The notes under the pieces were generated by a model. The model did not search any database. It saw only the letters and a list, made by a program, of their open reading frames with translations, and was not told the DNA's origin. This document shows, one piece after another, positions 58,214-64,000 of a stretch of 64,000 nucleotides of DNA (position 1 is the first letter of the stretch; every line of letters starts with the position of its first letter). The position numbers and the translations under genes were made by a program. Location: IMG/VR virus record IMGVR_UViG_3300044667_000075, positions 32,001-96,000 of that record; one strand, written 5' to 3'. Source of the stretch: a virus. Taxonomy: Duplodnaviria > Caudoviricetes.

Positions 58214-58549
58214 TCATAGCTCGTCTTCTCGGCCGGTGGCCATGAGGTTGATCGCCAGGGCCATGCGGCGTGCATCCAACTGGCCGCCGTACCAGCGTTC
58301 GGTGATCACGTCGTTCGGCTGTGTCAGCACGTCATAGACGAATCGCTGCTCAAGAGTCTCCATGCCTTCGCGATGCCAGTAGCTCCGCACGGTCTCGAAC
58401 GGATCCGAGTGGCCGAGGTTGGAGGAGATGGCGCCGAGCTGGATCAGCACCTCACCCAGCCTGAAAGGGTCGAGGCGAAACACCGGCATGTGATGGTCTG
58501 GCGCTACAGCCATGGAGGACGGTTCAGGCTGGCAGGTCATGTCGGTCAC
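58214..58549 (-). CDS. hypothetical protein
   Basis: GTGA-coupled to recombinase. Confidence 0.55.
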   Translation of the reverse strand: MTDMTCQPEPSSMAVAPDHHMPVFRLDPFRLGEVLIQLGAISSNLGHSDPFETVRSYWHREGMETLEQRFVYDVLTQPNDVITERWYGGQLDARRMALAINLMATGREDEL

Positions 58550-59607
58550 AGGCCGACTCCTCTCATCGGGTGGTTCTTCCATTTGTCGACGGCCCGGACG
58601 TAGCCGAGCACGACGGGGGAGTTCTCGGCCCACCGTCCGTGCCCGGCGATACCGGAGACTGGTGCCCCGGTCGCGTAGGCGGCGGACGCTCCGCCGCTGC
58701 GCAGTGAGTGGCCCTTGTACTTGGAGGCGTTTTCCAGCCCGGCGGCGAGCGCGCGGCGGCGGATGATCTCGGCGACGGAGTGACCGGTCAGCCGGTCGCC
58801 TCCCTTGCCTGCCGCTTTCGGCTCGTTGCCGATCCGGCCGTGCCGGTCGACGGGACGGAACAGGGCGCCGGACGTGATGCCACGGTCGGCCAGGAGCGCG
58901 ATCCATGCTTGCGTGGCGCGGACGGGGCATGTCTCGGGGTGCTGGCCGTTCAGGACCGGCACCTCTTGCCCCTTGGCTTCCTGGTCGGTCTTGGACTGTC
59001 GGATGGTGACGTCGAGTCCTTCCTGGCCGGGCCGAATGTCGGCGATGTCCAGCGCGGCGAGCTCGGAGCGGCGGGCCATCAGGGCGAAGCCGAGCAGCAG
59101 GAGCGCCCGGTCCCGGACACCGATCGGGGTGGCCGGGTCGCAGGTGTCCACCATGGCGCGGAGGGCGTCGATCATGACGGGGGGTGCTTTGCGGACCCGG
59201 TTGCCTGCCTTGACCCACTGGCGGCGGTAGGCGCGGAGGACCCGGCGGGATGGCTTGATGCCGGGCTGGTCCTCGTAGCCGCGTTCGGCGTGGATGGCAC
59301 GGATGGAACCCATGGCCCGGTCGATGCTCGCGGGTGCGGCGGGCTTGGGTTTCTCCATCATCCAGGTCACGTAGTCGAGGAGCGTCTGGGCGGTGGCGGG
59401 GAGCGCGACCCGGCCGTGCTGCTCGCACCATGTGGTGAAGTTGCCCCAGTCGTAGCCGTGGGCGAGGAGGGTGTTCTCGGCGGGGGCGGCGAGGAGCCGT
59501 TCGGCGGCGGCGGCGCTGATGGTGAAGTCGGCGTCGGTGTACCCGGCCGGGGCTGGCTCTGCCGGGCGGATGACGACCGGTCGCGCGGCCGGTACGAGTT
59601 CGCTCAT
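58546..59607 (-). CDS. Cre-like tyrosine recombinase/resolvase
   Basis: RDRALLL.G...RRSEL, SKTDQ, GHSLRSG, HGRW, GY; no arm-binding N-domain. Confidence 0.92.
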   Translation of the reverse strand: MSELVPAARPVVIRPAEPAPAGYTDADFTISAAAAERLLAAPAENTLLAHGYDWGNFTTWCEQHGRVALPATAQTLLDYVTWMMEKPKPAAPASIDRAMGSIRAIHAERGYEDQPGIKPSRRVLRAYRRQWVKAGNRVRKAPPVMIDALRAMVDTCDPATPIGVRDRALLLLGFALMARRSELAALDIADIRPGQEGLDVTIRQSKTDQEAKGQEVPVLNGQHPETCPVRATQAWIALLADRGITSGALFRPVDRHGRIGNEPKAAGKGGDRLTGHSVAEIIRRRALAAGLENASKYKGHSLRSGGASAAYATGAPVSGIAGHGRWAENSPVVLGYVRAVDKWKNHPMRGVGL

Positions 59608-60350
59608 GTCGCCGCCTTGCTGCATGGCCTCTCGGCGAGCAGGCTGGTCCCGTCGCATCCGCAGTGTCGGCAGATCGGCCTCCCTTCTTCCGGGTACTCG
59701 TGGCCGAACTGGTTGAGCGACGGCACCTCTGTGCCGATGACCAGCCAGCCCCCGTGGACGCGCCGTCTGCCGTCCCCATCGGCTGCGAAGATGCCCGGAT
59801 CCGGGCAGGGGAAGCCGTCCGGCACATCCCAGGTCTTGCGGTAACGACCCTCGCCGCGGCAGCGCGGGCAGTTCCACCACCGGCACCACTGGCCGTCGAC
59901 CGACTTTTCCAGCGGCCCGTCGGGGTGCTTGCCGCACTGGATCGAGTCCTCGTGCAGAAAGTCCTCTTCCATGTAGTCGGCGTTGTCCAGGTCAATATGC
60001 CCGTCTGCCATAAGCGGGCCGTGGACGAGCACCCCCGCCCAGACGATCAGGTTGTCGCCGTGACCGCATTCGGCGCAGCGGTAGATGCCGACCTCGTGAG
60101 GCCATGCCTTCGCGCACGCGGCCCGGCCGCAGCGGAGCGCCGGAACAACGGAGACTGGCGGGCAGGCCCGGTCGAGGATAAGCGGGGCACCACTGCACGC
60201 CGCGCCACCATCCGGCGCGACGATGTGATAGCAGCGCCCGCGGCCCGGCTTGTTGAAGAGACTGGCGTCCCGCCAGGCCGCCATCCCGGCTTGCGGGACG
60301 CGCTCGCCGTCTGATGCGACCGGACGGTTCCGGTAGATGCGCTGCGCCAT
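59604..60350 (-). CDS. multi-Zn-finger hypothetical protein
   Basis: many CxxC motifs. Confidence 0.6.
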   Translation of the reverse strand: MAQRIYRNRPVASDGERVPQAGMAAWRDASLFNKPGRGRCYHIVAPDGGAACSGAPLILDRACPPVSVVPALRCGRAACAKAWPHEVGIYRCAECGHGDNLIVWAGVLVHGPLMADGHIDLDNADYMEEDFLHEDSIQCGKHPDGPLEKSVDGQWCRWWNCPRCRGEGRYRKTWDVPDGFPCPDPGIFAADGDGRRRVHGGWLVIGTEVPSLNQFGHEYPEEGRPICRHCGCDGTSLLAERPCSKAAT

Positions 60351-60363
60351 CCGCGCCTCCGAG

Positions 60364-60399
60364 TCTGGGTTTCGTTAAGCTCACTTATCACAACCCAGA
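60364..60399. other. lox/res-like recombination core site
   Basis: TCTGGGTTTCGTTAA-GCTCAC-TTATCACAACCCAGA, upstream of the recombinase operon. Confidence 0.6.
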
Positions 60400-60490
60400 A
60401 TACCAGGTGACGGGCCTGTGATCCTGCCGCCTCGCCGCCGTGATGCGAGCCTCACGTACCGCTTACCTACGCTCACGTAACCTGAGCCTC

Positions 60491-60778
60491 ATGGACAGCA
60501 GCGACCTCGCGCTCATCTCTGCTGTCCGCCGTGCCCTCCGTGACGGCTCTGCCCGTGCTGCCCGTGAGGCGGCCGGGGTGACGCAGAAGGAGATGGCTGC
60601 GGTGGTCGGCTGCGTGCCGTCGGCGATCAGCCAGTACGAGTCCCTTGACCCGGTGACTGGTCGGCCGTTCAGGGTGCCGGGGACGGAGAAGGCGCTGGCG
60701 TACGGTCGGGAGCTCGTTGCGCTGGGATGGCAGGTGCCGGAGCCGCGCGGCGCGTCGCCCCGCCCGTCCCCTATGTAG
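60491..60778 (+). CDS. XRE HTH protein
   Basis: REAAGVTQKEMAAVVG...SAISQYE. Confidence 0.8.
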   Translation: MDSSDLALISAVRRALRDGSARAAREAAGVTQKEMAAVVGCVPSAISQYESLDPVTGRPFRVPGTEKALAYGRELVALGWQVPEPRGASPRPSPM

Positions 60779-60797
60779 CTATGCTAAACTAGCTTGT

Positions 60798-61097
60798 GTG
60801 CAGGACATTGAGCTGACCCTCAAAATGGCCCGGCTGCTGAACCCGTTCCTCGCTGACCCGGCCCGTCCCCGGTACGGGATGGAACTCATGCAGGCGACGG
60901 AACTGCCCAGCGGGAGCTTGTACCCGATGCTGGCCAAGTTCACCCAGGCGGGGTGGCTTACCCGCACCAAGGAAGACATCGACCCGAGGGCTGAGGGCAG
61001 GCCGCGCCGGTACCTGTACACGCTGACCGCTGAGGCGCTGCCGGTTGCACGGGAACGGCTGGCCGCCATCGGCGCCGAGTTTGGAGGGGGATCGTGA
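60798..61097 (+). CDS. PadR-family regulator
   Basis: YGMELM..T.L.SGSLYPML......GWL...GRPRRY.Y.LT. Confidence 0.88.
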   Translation: MQDIELTLKMARLLNPFLADPARPRYGMELMQATELPSGSLYPMLAKFTQAGWLTRTKEDIDPRAEGRPRRYLYTLTAEALPVARERLAAIGAEFGGGS

Positions 61098-61471
61098 CCG
61101 AGACCGCCGACCTGGCATGGCAGAAGTACCTAGCCGCCGTCGATGCCACGCCGGATGCGCTGGCGGGTAAGCGCTACCACCAGTGGGTAGACGCGGGTCG
61201 GCCGCCGCTCCACGTCGAGGATGGCGCCACGTGCGGCTACGGCGTTGAGACCGGCGAGACCGTGGCCCTGGTGGAGGGCGACGCCCCGACCTACGAGGAT
61301 TGCGGGAAGCCGTCCCGGTTCGTCGTGGAGCGCTCCGACGGTGATGAGTCGTTCGGGCTGCTGGGGGGCGGCGAGGAGTCGTGTGAGGAGCACCTGGCCG
61401 AGACGGTCGCGGGGATGATCGGCGGCGATGAGGTACGCGCGGTTGTCTCGATCCGGTGGGACAAGCCATGA
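61094..61471 (+). CDS. hypothetical protein
   Basis: GTGA overlap. Confidence 0.6.
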   Translation: MTETADLAWQKYLAAVDATPDALAGKRYHQWVDAGRPPLHVEDGATCGYGVETGETVALVEGDAPTYEDCGKPSRFVVERSDGDESFGLLGGGEESCEEHLAETVAGMIGGDEVRAVVSIRWDKP

Positions 61472-61638
61472 GCGAGATCGTCCACCACTGCCCGCTAGAC
61501 GGCTGCGGGGTTACCCCCTGCTGCGGGATGACGCCGTTCGAGCTCCCCCGTACCGACCGGATGACCTCGGACCCGTCGCTGGTGACATGCCACTCGCGGC
61601 TGACCGTGCCTGACGAGCCCGCCGGAGGGACGCCATGA
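61468..61638 (+). CDS. small Cys-rich protein
   Basis: H.CP...TPCCG.TPFELP..D.MT.DP..VTC. Confidence 0.6.
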   Translation: MSEIVHHCPLDGCGVTPCCGMTPFELPRTDRMTSDPSLVTCHSRLTVPDEPAGGTP

Positions 61639-61823
61639 CCGGCAACGTCTACCTTGATCCCGGTTCCCGCCAGTCGGGCCGTTTCGACCCTCCCCGCCGC
61701 TGCATGGTCCTGACCCGCTGGGGTCCGGGTGGCGGTCCCCGGAACGTCGCCGTCCGCTATGAGGATGACGGCAGCGAGGCCGTGGTCCCGTTCCCGCGAC
61801 GGCTGCGGAAGGAGCGCTCATGA
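61635..61823 (+). CDS. hypothetical protein
   Basis: GPRNV.V..EDG..VVP. Confidence 0.6.
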   Translation: MTGNVYLDPGSRQSGRFDPPRRCMVLTRWGPGGGPRNVAVRYEDDGSEAVVPFPRRLRKERS

Positions 61824-62218
61824 GCGACCGCCACATGCACATCACCGGGTTCCTCCACCCGCACGCGGACGGCGTGGACCGGTTCATAGAGACAGCCTCA
61901 CGCATGGACTTCTTCGCCGAGGTGTACCCAGTCCGCCGCGCTGACGGGACGGTGATCGCGGTCGCGTTCCTCAGCAAGGACCTGGACGGCATCAGCGACG
62001 AGCTGGGCATGCCGGAGGTGTGCGAGAAGCTGTCGGGGATCTTGGATGAGGACATCGTGATCGCGTCGGCGTGGCAGCATCCCCAGCGGGAGGCGTCGTC
62101 GTTCGCCCGAAAGTACGACGAGCGTGAGAGCGTCTGGCTGGTGCGCGGCCGGGACCGGGCAGTTCCCGGGGAAGTCGTCAGCGGGAATCGCGAACTGGAG
62201 GTGGCCGATGGGGGCTGA
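61820..62218 (+). CDS. hypothetical protein
   Basis: ATGA overlap. Confidence 0.6.
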   Translation: MSDRHMHITGFLHPHADGVDRFIETASRMDFFAEVYPVRRADGTVIAVAFLSKDLDGISDELGMPEVCEKLSGILDEDIVIASAWQHPQREASSFARKYDERESVWLVRGRDRAVPGEVVSGNRELEVADGG

Positions 62219-62411
62219 TCTTAGCTGGGGGCATGTCCCGGAGCCGGAGGAGACCGCTGCGATCAGGCGGCTCAATGCCGTGAAGGCGGCCAAGTGGGAC
62301 AGGATCGCGGCGGCGTGGGAAAGGTACTGCACCGGGGGTGCGGGTGCTTTCGACTGGGACTATGACAGCCGGGACCTGATGCGCGAGCTGACCGCAGGGG
62401 ATCAGCCGTGA
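62208..62411 (+). CDS. hypothetical protein
   Basis: RBS GGAGGT. Confidence 0.55.
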   Translation: MGADLSWGHVPEPEETAAIRRLNAVKAAKWDRIAAAWERYCTGGAGAFDWDYDSRDLMRELTAGDQP

Positions 62412-62472
62412 GCCTGTTCTGGAGCGAGCACGACACCTGGGAGCCGCAGGGCGGCCAGCGGAAGGCGCCGAT

Positions 62473-62685
62473 GTGACGAGCACCAGGACCGACCTGATCC
62501 TCGGCACTGTCACGGCCCTGGTTGACCGGCTCCTGATCGTGGACCGCGAGAACGACGACGAACTGCCGCCGGGCGCGATCGAGCAGGCCCTCATCCACGG
62601 CGAGGTCACCGTGGAGTGGATGGCTGCCCGGTTCAAGCAGGAACTCGGGGCGCGGCTGGAGGAAGCGACGGGGCTGACCGGGTGA
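62473..62685 (+). CDS. hypothetical protein
   Basis: DRE.DDELP.GAIE.A..GE.TV. Confidence 0.6.
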   Translation: MTSTRTDLILGTVTALVDRLLIVDRENDDELPPGAIEQALIHGEVTVEWMAARFKQELGARLEEATGLTG

Positions 62686-62746
62686 GTCGCGCTGACTGCG
62701 TGCTCGTTGCCGGCCTAGACTTACTCCCCGTGAGGGGGGCACGCTG

Positions 62747-62992
62747 ATGGGCCGGGGCCGTGGTGGTCCGCGCGGACGAGGACCGAGCATCCTTGACCCC
62801 TGGAAGGACGCCCTTGAGGCGGAGGTCGCGGCGGACGAGGGCAGGGTCCCGAGGTCTGCGAAGGTGATAGCCGAGCAGGTCGGCGTGACCGGCGTGTCCT
62901 CCGACACGGTGGCACGGTACGTGGGCGGGTTGCGGCGGGCGCAGCGGGCCCGCGTCAGGGCGGAAGCCCGCAGCGAGGACACCTACCTATGA
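62747..62992 (+). CDS. small HTH protein
   Basis: SILDPWK...SAKVIAEQ.G..G.S.DTVARYV, like the IS21-type transposase N-terminal HTH. Confidence 0.55.
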   Translation: MGRGRGGPRGRGPSILDPWKDALEAEVAADEGRVPRSAKVIAEQVGVTGVSSDTVARYVGGLRRAQRARVRAEARSEDTYL

Positions 62993-63454
62993 GGCTGGCC
63001 CGCGCTCTGGCTGCTCGTCGAGCCCGTGATCAAGCAGAGTGATCGCGGCGGCGTTGAGCGTCAAGCCGCGGTCCCGTGCATACACAGCAAGGCGATTCTT
63101 CAGCGACGGGACAACGCGCGGAGTGATGGTGACCGTCTGGAGAGAAGTCTTCGTAGCAAGCCCGCGCGTCGGCCCAAGATCCTCAACGGCGCACGGCTCG
63201 CAATCCGGGCAGCGGCCCGCGTAGGCAACCAGCGCCGCAAGGGTGAGCGGTGGCGTGATGGTCGACTTCCTGAGCGATGCCCGCCGGTCGATGAAGGCCA
63301 TGAGCGTGTTGCACCGTGGGCAGAGCACGCCACGAACCCATCCGTGCGCATGGCAGTGGTCGGTTCTCGGCAGAGGTGACGGGTCGGCGCAGAGTTCGCA
63401 AGGCGTTCCGGGTTCGGCCACGGTGTGCTCGCCATAGCGGACGGGCGTCGTCAC
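62987..63454 (-). CDS. endonuclease VII domain fused to a RHH/HicB-like domain
   Basis: CELC..DHCH..G.VRGVLCPRCN; TITPRVVPSLKNRL..YARDRGLTLN. Confidence 0.75.
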   Translation of the reverse strand: MTTPVRYGEHTVAEPGTPCELCADPSPLPRTDHCHAHGWVRGVLCPRCNTLMAFIDRRASLRKSTITPPLTLAALVAYAGRCPDCEPCAVEDLGPTRGLATKTSLQTVTITPRVVPSLKNRLAVYARDRGLTLNAAAITLLDHGLDEQPERGPAS

Positions 63455-63654
63455 GAGCCCTCCCCGGATGTAAGCGCGGATACCAGTTCGTCTTGGTGTC
63501 GCATGGCGACGTGGATCGCCCTGACGAGCACGTCAGACATTGACAGCCGACGCCCGACCGGGGTGGTCAGGTCCAGGGTCGCTTGCCTCAACTCATCCCG
63601 AGCGGCAAGCGTGAGATTGACGGACACGAAGGCGGTCCGTCTTGGAGTACTCAT
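63451..63654 (-). CDS. ribbon-helix-helix-like protein
   Basis: FVSVNLT..ARDELR...RRLSMSDVL; TACAAT -10 box just upstream (leaderless). Confidence 0.65.
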   Translation of the reverse strand: MSTPRRTAFVSVNLTLAARDELRQATLDLTTPVGRRLSMSDVLVRAIHVAMRHQDELVSALTSGEGS

Positions 63655-63678
63655 GTCCGCTATTGTAGCGGACAGTGT

Positions 63679-63707
63679 TTGACAGTGCCATGATGCTATG
63701 GCAAACT
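63679..63707 (+). promoter_or_regulatory. promoter for ncRNA pair, with operator repeats
   Basis: TTGACA-17-CAAACT; TGCCAT-N6-ATGGCA; GACAGTG x2; TATGGCAA x2. Confidence 0.6.
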
Positions 63708-63754
63708 TATGGCAACGGGAAGCGGCGATCCTGTACCGTGACCCGGAGAGCGTC

Positions 63755-63836
63755 ACCCCTCCCCGGTGCGCAGGCTGCGGCTACTTCACATTTGGGATGC
63801 GATCCGTACCGCTGCCGACCCGATCTCGGGGAGGGT
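63755..63836 (+). ncRNA. Y-RNA-like ncRNA 1 (no tRNA module)
   Basis: terminal stem CCCTCCCCG/CGGGGAGGG; motifs GTGCGCAGG and GCCGACCCGATCT shared with unit 2. Confidence 0.6.
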
Positions 63837-63852
63837 TCACAACTGAATGCTT

Positions 63853-63981
63853 CGCACCTCCCGGTGCGCAGGTGAACGGGTACTTCAAGGTTCGAATCCT
63901 CGTACGGGCTTCCGCAAGGTTCGCCTGTATCGCCCAATTGGCAGGGCTATCCCGGTCGCCGACCTGATCTCGGGAGGAGCG
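63853..63981 (+). ncRNA. YrlA-like Y RNA with permuted tRNA module
   Basis: T arm (63886-63902), closed acceptor stem TACGGGC/GCCTGTA, D arm GCCC-AATTGGCA-GGGC, GCCGA motif on the 3' strand. Confidence 0.75.
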
Positions 63982-64000
63982 CACGTCATAGGACGTGCCC

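What the first reader, a model, noticed from the sequence alone, without database searches (positions are those of the whole stretch)
63755..63981. Tandem Y-RNA-like genes, the second carrying a circularly permuted tRNA module
Seen: two units share a terminal stem plus the motifs GTGCGCAGG and GCCGACCYGATCT. Unit 2 contains, in this order, a T arm (AGG-TTCGAAT-CCT), the acceptor 3' strand TACGGGC, a GCAA-capped linker, the acceptor 5' strand GCCTGTA and a D arm, so the tRNA halves are swapped. Unit 1 has a pyrimidine-rich loop and a small hairpin instead. A TTGACA promoter precedes them. Established: bacterial YrlA Y RNAs have this T/acceptor/D order and a GNCGA-type Ro60-binding motif on the 3' strand, occur beside a second Y RNA and rsr, and are known in some phages. 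Inference: a phage-borne Ro60/Y RNA system with a variant motif (GCCGACC). An alternative is a permuted tRNA precursor.
Basis: partly seen in the sequence, partly recalled or inferred. Interest (0 to 1): 0.8.

Follow-up and report, generated by a model that had tools for sequence, protein, structure and literature searches.

The report
Phage Ro60 gene with three Y RNAs
The end of this window holds the first two, and the start of a third, tandem Y-RNA genes that sit directly upstream of a phage Ro60 (TROVE) gene; the module is real and well conserved but of a kind known in phages since 2014, and standard tools miss it or miscall it as tRNA.

Summary
Window 63757-63835 (U1) and 63857-63977 (U2) are two units on one scaffold. 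A third unit (U3) starts at 63995 and runs 108 nt past the window end.

A covariance model built from 16 such units hits exactly these three places in the 125-kb phage. It also hits 2-4 units upstream of rsr in six actinobacterial genomes and 189 units in 78 IMG/VR contigs. Stems covary strongly, including the T, acceptor-like and D arms of the U2-type head.

Corrections:
- There are three units, not two.
- The published Ro60 motif (GNCGAA-type) lies on the 5' strand. Here it is the variant GUGCGCAGG, not the 3' GCCGACC.
- Rfam YrlA scores U2 at only 17.6 bits, against a gathering score of 69.
- ARAGORN calls U3 tRNA-Ser(GCU).

Phage Ro60/Y-RNA modules are already published (Chen 2014; phage phiLo 2025), so this is a divergent new member of a known kind.

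Points of moderate interest are heads that swap between scaffolds in close relatives, a recurrent anticodon-like loop CUGCUAA, and tRNA mis-annotation in GenBank phage records. The scan also noted this array in an overlapping window of the same genome.

The parts
63655..63673 (.). Perfect palindrome GTCCGCTA-ttg-TAGCGGAC between the divergent small ORF (63451-63654, minus strand) and the Y-RNA promoter. Candidate operator.
   Evidence: Read directly. An imperfect copy sits at the same place in L004. The small ORF is 66% identical in L004 and has no Pfam or PHROG hit.
63679..63707 (+). Candidate promoter: TTGACA (63679-84), 17-nt spacer, CAAACT (63702-07). The predicted start is about 43 nt before U1.
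   Evidence: Read directly. L004 has TTGACA-N16-TAAACT and L003 has TTGACG-N17-CATACT at the same place. The consensus scan did not call it. Inference only.
63757..63835 (+). Y RNA unit 1 (79 nt): 8-bp terminal stem, 5' GGUGCGCAGG, second stem, CUACUUC box, small hairpin (loop UUGGG), 3' CCGACCCGAUCUC. It has no tRNA-like arms.
   Evidence: R1 hit at 72.6 bits. MFE -40.7 kcal/mol, z -2.8, 0 of 200 shuffles as good. A near-identical unit is in L004.
63839..63848 (+). Conserved single-stranded spacer ACAACUGAAU between U1 and U2. Candidate processing site.
   Evidence: The same or a near-same decamer lies between units in L003, L004, L005 and Gordonia phage VanLee. Its function is inferred.
63857..63977 (+). 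Y RNA unit 2 (121 nt), YrlA-type. It has the same scaffold plus a tRNA-like head: T arm 63886-63902, closed 7-bp acceptor-like stem 63903-09/63923-29, U8-like T63930, and D arm 63932-47 with A14, G18G19 and A21 equivalents. There is no V hairpin.
   Evidence: R1 86.3 bits. Rfam YrlA 17.6 bits, E 0.4, arms aligned in register. Near-orthologues in Actinomadura (L014 1187-1299, L015 1187-1294) have an identical D arm and a different but still pairing acceptor stem.
63982..63997 (+). Spacer hairpin CACGUC-AUAG-GACGUG overlapping the first bases of U3. Candidate processing or alternative-pairing element.
   Evidence: Read directly. It is kept with sequence changes in L003 (CACGUC-UUAG-GGCGUG) and L004.
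63995..64000 (+). First 6 nt (GTGCCC) of Y RNA unit 3, which continues to window-equivalent 64108 (L001 527-640; genome 95995-96108). U3 has the scaffold, an anticodon-like hairpin CCUGU-CUGCUAA-ACAGG, a T arm GGCGG-UUCGACU-CCGCC and a short hairpin UGGGA-CGGC-UCCCG, but no D arm. Beyond it lie a hairpin that buries the Shine-Dalgarno sequence (L001 652-681) and the Ro60 gene (L001 685-2340).
   Evidence: Sequence. R1 89.2 bits. L004 U3 keeps the loop with two compensatory stem changes. ARAGORN calls it tRNA-Ser(gct). Rfam gives only tRNA-Sec at 19 bits against a gathering score of 47. The hairpin has dG -21.5, z -3.5. Ro60 is TROVE 2e-18 plus VWA_2.

Best explanation
This is the RNA half of a phage Ro60/Y-RNA module.

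One transcript probably starts at the TTGACA-N17-CAAACT promoter. It carries three tandem Y RNAs and ends, or is attenuated, at a hairpin that also buries the Shine-Dalgarno sequence of the Ro60 gene immediately downstream.

All three RNAs share one scaffold:
- a terminal stem;
- an invariant bulged helix formed by 5' GGUGCGCAGG and 3' CCGAYCYGAUCUC;
- a second stem;
- a UACUUC box.

By homology with YrlA and metazoan Y RNAs, this scaffold is the Ro60 docking site. The heads differ. U1 has a small hairpin. U2 has a YrlA-type tRNA elbow mimic (T arm, closed 7-bp acceptor stem, D arm). U3 has an anticodon-like hairpin, a T arm and a mini-stem.

By analogy with D. radiodurans, Salmonella and Thermus phage phiLo, the heads would tether the phage Ro60 ring to host factors, or gate access to the ring. 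Candidate factors are PNPase and tRNA-elbow-binding enzymes. During infection this would redirect host RNA decay or quality control.

Shown here: the sequence anatomy, covariation, linkage to Ro60 and family-wide conservation. Inferred: transcription and processing into separate RNAs, Ro60 binding, and partner recruitment.
For: - The Ro60 gene (TROVE+vWA, 551 aa) lies 45 nt after U3 on the same strand.
- The R1 model gives exactly three hits in the 125-kb genome.
- The same scaffold occurs in 2-4 copies just upstream of rsr in six independent actinobacterial genomes and in four cultured phages. It also gives 189 hits in 78 IMG/VR contigs.
- Of 80 motif-bearing viral loci, 65 have Ro60 downstream on the same strand, a median of 175 nt away.
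- Scaffold covariation: 87% of cells paired, 13 pairs with double changes, 0 of 500 shuffles as good, and slid controls at 39-52%.
- Full YrlA-type fold: 92.6% paired; T arm 98%, acceptor 89-98%, D arm 100%.
- Rfam YrlA aligns U2 arm for arm and hits relatives at E 2e-9 to 5e-3.
- Published precedent: YrlA lies next to and on the same strand as rsr in 254 bacteria and 22 phages. M. smegmatis YrlA and YrlB are cut from one precursor upstream of rsr (PMC4201824). Phage phiLo Ro60 binds two upstream Yrl RNAs and host PNPase (PMC12135203).
Against: - There are no expression, end-mapping or binding data for this phage.
- Rfam YrlA does not reach its gathering score for any unit (17.6 bits for U2; the best relative reaches 54 of 69).
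- All three window units have CGCAG instead of the published CGAA core.
- The invariant scaffold pairs never vary, so covariation cannot test the proposed Ro60-binding helix itself.
- The -10 element is weak.
- The hairpin before rsr has only a 4-U tail and was not called a terminator.
- The PNPase link rests on other systems. In D. radiodurans, deleting the T arm did not change complex assembly (PMC4201824).
Confidence: 0.85

Rival explanations
1. The units are genuine or circularly permuted tRNA genes. On this reading U3 is a tRNA-Ser(GCU), and U2 is a permuted pre-tRNA that is cut in the acceptor loop and used in translation.
For: - ARAGORN calls U3 tRNA-Ser(gct).
- GenBank records annotate homologous units as tRNA-Ser(gct) in Alone3 and tRNA-Arg(tct) in VanLee.
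- U2 has a 7-bp acceptor stem, the feature that lets RNase P cut M. smegmatis YrlA (PMC4201824).
- The U3 hairpin loop CUGCUAA has the Y32-U33-NNN-A37-A38 pattern of an anticodon loop.
Against: - The ARAGORN acceptor stem for U3 pairs at only 4 of 7 positions. U3 has no D arm and no long variable arm.
- Rfam tRNA does not hit any of these units at E<0.01, while every true phage tRNA in the same loci scores 42-70 bits. U3 gets only tRNA-Sec at 19 bits against a gathering score of 47.
- U2 has no anticodon arm; the Y stem takes its place.
- All units share a covarying terminal stem with sequence far 3' of the supposed tRNA.
- The units are linked to Ro60 in 65 of 80 viral loci.
Confidence: 0.03
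2. The array is mainly a cis-acting leader of the Ro60 mRNA. On this reading the repeated Ro60-binding stems in the 5' UTR let Ro60 autoregulate its own synthesis, and they are not stable trans-acting RNAs.
For: - The units lie between the only candidate promoter and the rsr start.
- The hairpin just before the ATG contains the Shine-Dalgarno sequence and has only a short U tail, so read-through is plausible.
- Hairpin and position are kept in L003-L005.
Against: - In M. smegmatis the equivalent upstream RNAs are processed from the precursor and accumulate bound to Rsr (PMC4201824).
- Heads with full tRNA-like folds under strong covariation are not needed for a binding-site leader.
- Conserved spacers and an inter-unit hairpin suggest processing into separate RNAs.
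- The two roles are not exclusive.
Confidence: 0.07
3. The tRNA-like heads act as decoys or sponges for host tRNA-directed enzymes or defence nucleases (anticodon nucleases, modification enzymes). In this reading Ro60 serves mainly to stabilise them.
For: - The anticodon-like loop CUGCUAA is the commonest loop after the UACUUC box: 25 of 230 units. Eighty of 230 have a Y-U-NNN-R-N 7-nt loop.
- The loop is kept while its stem changes by compensatory substitutions.
- In BRock-like Streptomyces phages the module sits inside the phage tRNA gene array.
Against: - There is no functional evidence.
- The triplet in the loop varies (GCU, GUU, UGG, CUG and others).
- U1-type units lack any tRNA feature.
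- No defence or anti-defence gene was identified next to the module.
Confidence: 0.05

Closest known systems
YrlA / YrlB Y RNAs of Mycobacterium smegmatis and mycobacteriophages (Chen et al. 2014, PMC4201824; Rfam RF02553)
   Same: - They lie upstream of rsr on the same strand.
- Several Y RNAs are present in tandem, and in M. smegmatis they come from one precursor.
- There is a 5' Ro60 motif of the (G)NCGAA-G type, a conserved UAY element before the head, and a head in T arm / closed acceptor stem / D arm order.
- The acceptor stem is 7 bp, as in M. smegmatis.
- A second RNA carries only a T arm, like YrlB.
   Different: - The motif core is CGCAG rather than CGAA in all three window units.
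- The 3' strand of the binding helix is also strongly conserved (CCGAYCYGAUCUC), whereas only the 5' strand is recognisable in Salmonella and M. smegmatis.
- U2 has no V hairpin and a weak T stem (A.C mismatch).
- There are three units.
- Rfam score is 17.6 bits, against a gathering score of 69.
Thermus phage phiLo Ro60 with Yrl1 and Yrl2 (NAR 2025, PMC12135203; PDB 9KOP, 9L5Y)
   Same: - It is a phage-encoded TROVE+vWA Ro60 with Y-like RNAs directly upstream.
- It is the best solved relative of this protein (E 3.6e-27).
- In phiLo the RNAs bind Ro60 and host PNPase in vitro, which is the working model used here.
   Different: - phiLo has two RNAs, described as stem-bulge-stem with a CGAA motif. 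The passages I retrieved do not mention any tRNA-like head (the terms 'tRNA-like' and 'YrlA' are absent from its text).
- The host phylum is different.
- Nothing has been tested for the present phage.
Deinococcus radiodurans Yrn1 and metazoan Y RNAs
   Same: - Both strands of the Ro60-binding helix are conserved.
- The 5' GGUGCGCAGGU resembles metazoan GGUCCGAAGGU.
- Yrn1 has a T arm and a possible anticodon-like arm, as U3 does.
   Different: - Arm order and scaffold sequence differ.
- Searches with Yrn1 found no orthologues outside its lineage (PMC4201824).
- No sequence comparison with Yrn1 was run here. The resemblance rests on the paper's description.

Membership tests
YrlA-type bacterial/phage Y RNA (Chen 2014; Rfam RF02553) | Encoded within 4 kb of a Ro60/TROVE gene and on the same strand | tested here: met
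   U1-U3 end 45 nt before a 551-aa TROVE+vWA ORF on the + strand. The same holds for 65 of 80 related viral loci.
YrlA-type bacterial/phage Y RNA (Chen 2014; Rfam RF02553) | GNCGAAN0-1G motif near the 5' end (presumed Ro60 contact) | tested here: inconclusive
   All three units have UGCGCAGG at the equivalent place, with CGCAG in place of CGAAG. Relatives on the same scaffold have UGCGAAGG (L003 U2, L005 U1, L006 U3 and U4). This is one substitution from the published motif, and binding is untested.
YrlA-type bacterial/phage Y RNA (Chen 2014; Rfam RF02553) | Head with T arm, closed acceptor-like stem and D arm in that order, with tRNA tertiary-contact nucleotides | tested here: met
   Met for U2 only. 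It has T loop UUCGAAU, a 7-bp acceptor stem, U8, A14, G18G19, A21 and a possible A15:U48 pair. The arms covary across 21 units. U1 has none of these, and U3 has a T arm but no D arm.
YrlA-type bacterial/phage Y RNA (Chen 2014; Rfam RF02553) | Conserved YUAY element before the head | tested here: met
   The UAC of a UACUUC box is invariant or nearly so in all 16 and 21 aligned units. The first position is C, G and A in U1, U2 and U3, so strict YUAY holds only for U1.
YrlA-type bacterial/phage Y RNA (Chen 2014; Rfam RF02553) | Score at or above the Rfam gathering threshold (69 bits) | tested here: not met
   U2 scores 17.6 bits, E 0.4. U1 and U3 give no YrlA hit. Relatives score 32-54 bits.
YrlA-type bacterial/phage Y RNA (Chen 2014; Rfam RF02553) | Bound by Ro60/Rsr in vivo | not testable with these tools
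   Needs immunoprecipitation or EMSA.
Ro60 / Rsr protein | TROVE (HEAT-repeat ring) domain followed by a vWA domain | tested here: met
   Pfam TROVE 2e-18 (67 bits, cut-off 23). VWA_2 5.5e-5 (24.2 bits, just under its cut-off of 27). PHROG 850 RNA-binding protein 2e-45 over residues 25-536. PDB 9KOP/9L5Y E 4e-27 and 2NVO E 8e-9.
tRNA (genuine) | Cloverleaf with a 7-bp acceptor stem, a D arm and a score above the Rfam tRNA threshold | tested here: not met
   In U3 the acceptor pairs at 4 of 7 positions and there is no D arm. Rfam gives no tRNA hit, only tRNA-Sec at 19 bits against a gathering score of 47. ARAGORN on the window alone found none. Homologous annotated 'tRNAs' in Alone3 and VanLee give no Rfam tRNA hit either.

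The most novel reading that the evidence does not exclude
The heads are exchangeable, functional tRNA-part mimics rather than mere stabilisers. In particular, the hairpin after the UACUUC box is a true anticodon-arm mimic: its 7-nt loop CUGCUAA is conserved while its stem covaries. It would engage a host tRNA-directed factor, such as an anticodon nuclease or a t6A/queuosine-type modification enzyme, or guide Ro60-PNPase to particular tRNAs.

The 5' half of each unit also runs in tRNA order (acceptor-like strand, D-like GCGCAGG, anticodon-like arm, T arm, acceptor strand). That is why ARAGORN of these units tRNAs. It may be a surviving trace of the dimeric-tRNA origin proposed for YrlA.
Probability: 0.12. 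Interest if true: 0.7.

Novelty: new member of a known kind. Interest (0 to 1): 0.4.

Why it matters
Ro60/Y-RNA particles are an old puzzle of RNA biology, and what the phage versions do during infection is untested. This locus adds no new principle, but three practical points follow.

- A large actinophage and actinobacterial branch of the family escapes the curated Rfam model at its threshold. At least 78 IMG/VR contigs carry 1-5 units by motif count per contig.
- tRNA finders routinely call these units tRNAs. Of 97 ARAGORN calls in the loci examined, 49 were Y-RNA units. At least two GenBank phage records carry such annotations, which inflates phage tRNA counts and codon-usage inferences.
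- Close relatives keep the scaffolds but swap the heads. This is a natural experiment for finding what the heads bind. Cultured relatives (Streptomyces phages Alone3 and BRock, Gordonia phage VanLee) make it testable.

Tried and rejected
- Rfam search of 60000-64000 at E<=10 gave no Y-RNA hit. YrlA appeared only when the search was narrowed to 351 nt, and then far below threshold.
- ARAGORN on the window alone found no tRNA, because U3 crosses the window end.
- A gapped DNA pattern for the whole unit was too strict and found nothing.
- No RtcB or other RNA-repair gene was found among the flanking ORFs tested. Pfam and PHROGs gave only endonuclease VII, a tyrosine recombinase and a tail fibre.
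- The 297-aa gene downstream of rsr is not conserved next to rsr in relatives, so it is not part of the module.
- The conserved U1-U2 spacer (TTCACAACTGAAT; TTGACA in L003 and VanLee) was considered as an internal promoter. It was rejected because no -10 element follows at 16-18 nt.
- A tail-region protein gave no tblastn hit among 50,697 cultured phages, so the phage has no close cultured relative and its host could not be named. The closest Ro60 proteins in genomes are from Actinoallomurus, Nocardiopsis and Actinomadura, at 54-61% identity.
- The supplementary tables of Chen 2014 and the 2020 Annual Review were not available. I could not check whether the CUGCUAA loop or arrays of three or more units were already listed there.

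Full report
**What is there**

- Unit 1 (63757-63835) has a perfect 8-bp terminal stem.
- Unit 2 (63857-63977) has a perfect 6-bp terminal stem.
- Inside the stem, each has GGUGCGCAGG on the 5' side and CCGACC(C/U)GAUCUC on the 3' side, then a second stem and a (C/G)UACUUC box.
- Unit 2 then carries a T arm (loop UUCGAAU) and a closed 7-bp stem whose strands run in the order tRNA-3'-acceptor then tRNA-5'-acceptor. After that come a U8-like U and a D arm GCCC-AAUUGGCA-GGGC.
- Unit 1 has only a small hairpin in that position.

The window is G000:C1:32001-96000 of a 125,263-bp virus record rated complete. Reading past the window end shows a third unit of the same design at window-equivalent 63995-64108. 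After it comes a strong hairpin (dG -21.5 kcal/mol, z -3.5) whose 3' arm is the Shine-Dalgarno sequence. Then comes the ATG of a 551-aa ORF.

**The neighbour is Ro60**

- The ORF matches Pfam TROVE (2e-18) and VWA_2.
- It matches PHROG 850 over nearly its whole length (2e-45).
- Among solved structures it matches Ro60 of Thermus phage phiLo (E 4e-27) and D. radiodurans Rsr (E 8e-9).

No rtcB was found among the flanking genes tested.

**More than chance, and conserved**

- In the whole genome the 5' and 3' motifs occur together only at the three units.
- Four IMG/VR relatives found through the Ro60 protein (48-85% identity) each have three or four units in the same place.
- In an alignment of 16 units (A1), 87% of cells pair in the proposed scaffold. 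Thirteen pairs show changes on both sides. None of 500 shuffles reaches this, and slid controls give 39-52%.
- The inner terminal-stem pairs are anchored by the invariant motifs, not chosen by me. The outermost pairs were chosen by extending pairing and are therefore biased.
- A covariance model built from A1 (R1) finds exactly three hits in the phage (72-89 bits).
- In sequences not used to build it, R1 finds 2-4 units directly upstream of rsr in Actinoallomurus, two Actinomadura species, Actinocrispum, Nocardia and Nocardiopsis. It finds 3-4 units in Streptomyces phages Alone3, pSt2308 and BRock and in Gordonia phage VanLee.
- A scan of IMG/VR for the exact motif CGGTGCGCAGG-N5-9-TACTTC returned 99 stretches. 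R1 gives 189 hits in 78 of them.
- Of 80 loci examined, 65 have Ro60 downstream on the same strand. The median distance from the last unit's motif is 175 nt.
- Several of the other 15 loci have the array at the edge of the DNA held.

**The tRNA-like head**

Twenty-one units with T and D arms align well (A2). Over 35 pairs, 92.6% of cells pair.

| Helix | Cells paired | Pairs with double changes |
|---|---|---|
| T arm | 98% | 3 of 5 |
| Acceptor-like stem | 89-98% | all 8 |
| D arm | 100% | 3 of 4 |

Slid controls give 39-48%.

Window U2 has near-orthologues in Actinomadura. They share its terminal stem, its second stem and an identical D arm, but their acceptor stem has a different, still-pairing sequence.

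Rfam YrlA aligns U2 arm for arm but scores it only 17.6 bits, against a gathering score of 69. Relatives score 32-54 bits, with E from 2e-9 to 5e-3. The family link is therefore statistically supported for the scaffold family as a whole, but no member passes the curated threshold.

**Unit 3**

U3 has a 5-bp hairpin with the loop CUGCUAA, a perfect T arm and a short closed stem, but no D arm.

ARAGORN on the whole genome calls it tRNA-Ser(gct). The implied acceptor stem pairs at only 4 of 7 positions. There is no D arm or long variable arm, and Rfam gives only tRNA-Sec at 19 bits.

L004 keeps the same loop with two compensatory stem changes. The same loop occurs in L005 U1 and in the last unit of Alone3.

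Across 241 motif-defined units, CUGCUAA is the commonest loop after the UACUUC box (25 units). CUGUUAA follows with 9. Eighty of 230 scored hairpins have a Y-U-NNN-R-N loop. The hairpin finder is my own simple script, and contigs were not de-replicated, so these counts are rough.

**Annotation pitfall**

Of 97 ARAGORN tRNA calls in the loci collected, 49 begin with the Y-RNA 5' motif and box. Twenty-one are 'Ser-gct' and seven are 'Asn-gtt'.

GenBank annotates such units as tRNA-Ser(gct) in Alone3 (gene 36) and as tRNA-Arg(tct) in VanLee (gene 125). Neither hits Rfam tRNA at E<0.01, while all neighbouring true tRNAs score 42-70 bits. The VanLee unit hits YrlA instead.

**Heads move between scaffolds**

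The terminal stems identify orthologous positions: CCUCCC for U2 and GUGCCC for U3. The full T/acceptor/D head sits in U2 in the window and L004, in U3 in L003, and in both U2 and U3 in L005. L003 U2 has three unrelated hairpins.

**Comparison with what is known**

Chen et al. 2014 (PMC4201824) reported the following.
- YrlA-like RNAs lie beside and on the same strand as rsr in 254 bacteria and 22 phages.
- A GNCGAAN0-1G motif lies near the 5' end.
- There is a conserved YUAY and V, T, AS and D elements.
- M. smegmatis YrlA is cleaved by RNase P and receives CCA, which was attributed to its 7-bp acceptor stem.
- A second upstream RNA, YrlB, has a T arm and is processed from the same precursor.
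- The authors expected variants that their models would miss.

The 2025 phiLo study (PMC12135203) showed that a phage Ro60 binds two upstream Yrl RNAs and host PNPase in vitro. It cites earlier phage examples.

The present locus is therefore a divergent member of a known kind. It differs in four ways:
- a CGCAG core instead of CGAA;
- a conserved 3' strand of the binding helix, more like D. radiodurans and metazoan Y RNAs than like Salmonella or M. smegmatis;
- a V-less U2;
- three units.

The paper places it on the 5' strand.

**Mechanism**

Shown: anatomy, covariation and linkage to Ro60.

Inferred:
- One transcript starts at TTGACA-N17-CAAACT. This promoter is conserved in L003 and L004 by eye but was not called by the scan.
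- The transcript is processed at the conserved spacer ACAACUGAAU and at the U2-U3 spacer hairpin.
- The shared helix docks on Ro60.
- The heads recruit or gate partners such as PNPase or tRNA-elbow binders.
- The hairpin before rsr limits Ro60 synthesis relative to the RNAs.

**Verdict**

The feature is real and correctly interpreted in the main, but it is not new in kind. Earlier notes of this scan on an overlapping window of the same genome describe the same three-RNA array and the buried ribosome-binding site. I reached these points from my own calls.

Noticed in passing
window 63451-63673 (minus-strand ORF 63451-63654; palindrome 63655-63673): A 67-aa divergent ORF sits beside the perfect palindrome GTCCGCTA-ttg-TAGCGGAC, which abuts the -35 of the Y-RNA promoter. 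It has no Pfam or PHROG hit. The ORF is 66% identical in L004 at the same place. Gordonia phage VanLee has an annotated ribbon-helix-helix gene just upstream of its array. This may be a repressor-operator pair controlling the module.
   Followed up: partly
L010 1154-1227 (Streptomyces phage Alone3, gene 36) and L011 826-897 (Gordonia phage VanLee, gene 125): These annotated tRNA-Ser(gct) and tRNA-Arg(tct) genes coincide with Y-RNA units upstream of the Ro-like gene. Neither gives an Rfam tRNA hit. The VanLee one is the only tRNA feature in the 4-kb stretch I retrieved, and its locus tag is gt001. They are probably mis-annotations.
   Followed up: yes
L012 3693-3856 and L010 3347-3579: Rfam manA RNA matches just below threshold (49.7 and 47.8 bits; gathering score 55.2). 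They lie between tRNA-Lys genes downstream of the Ro-like gene in BRock and Alone3.
   Followed up: no
L009, L010, L012 (Streptomyces phages pSt2308, Alone3, BRock): In these 113-116-kb phages the Y-RNA array and Ro-like gene are embedded inside the phage tRNA gene cluster, with tRNAs on both sides. The window phage has no genuine tRNA call at all.
   Followed up: partly
window 62987-63454, minus strand: A 155-aa protein has an N-terminal endonuclease VII domain (Pfam 3.5e-10). Its start overlaps the end of the small divergent ORF by 4 nt. It is 75% identical in L004.
   Followed up: partly
window 58546-59937, minus strand: A 463-aa tyrosine recombinase (Phage_integrase, 1.9e-7) lies mid-genome. 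An earlier first-stage note suggests a phage-plasmid lifestyle. I did not examine this.
   Followed up: no
L007 and L020: The IMG/VR contig UViG_2866649352_000006 has the same length (37,757 bp) and the same partial Ro60 match as Actinomadura sp. KC216 NODE_51. They are probably the same sequence. At least some IMG/VR 'viral' carriers of the module are therefore contigs of bacterial isolate assemblies, possibly prophages or plasmids.
   Followed up: no
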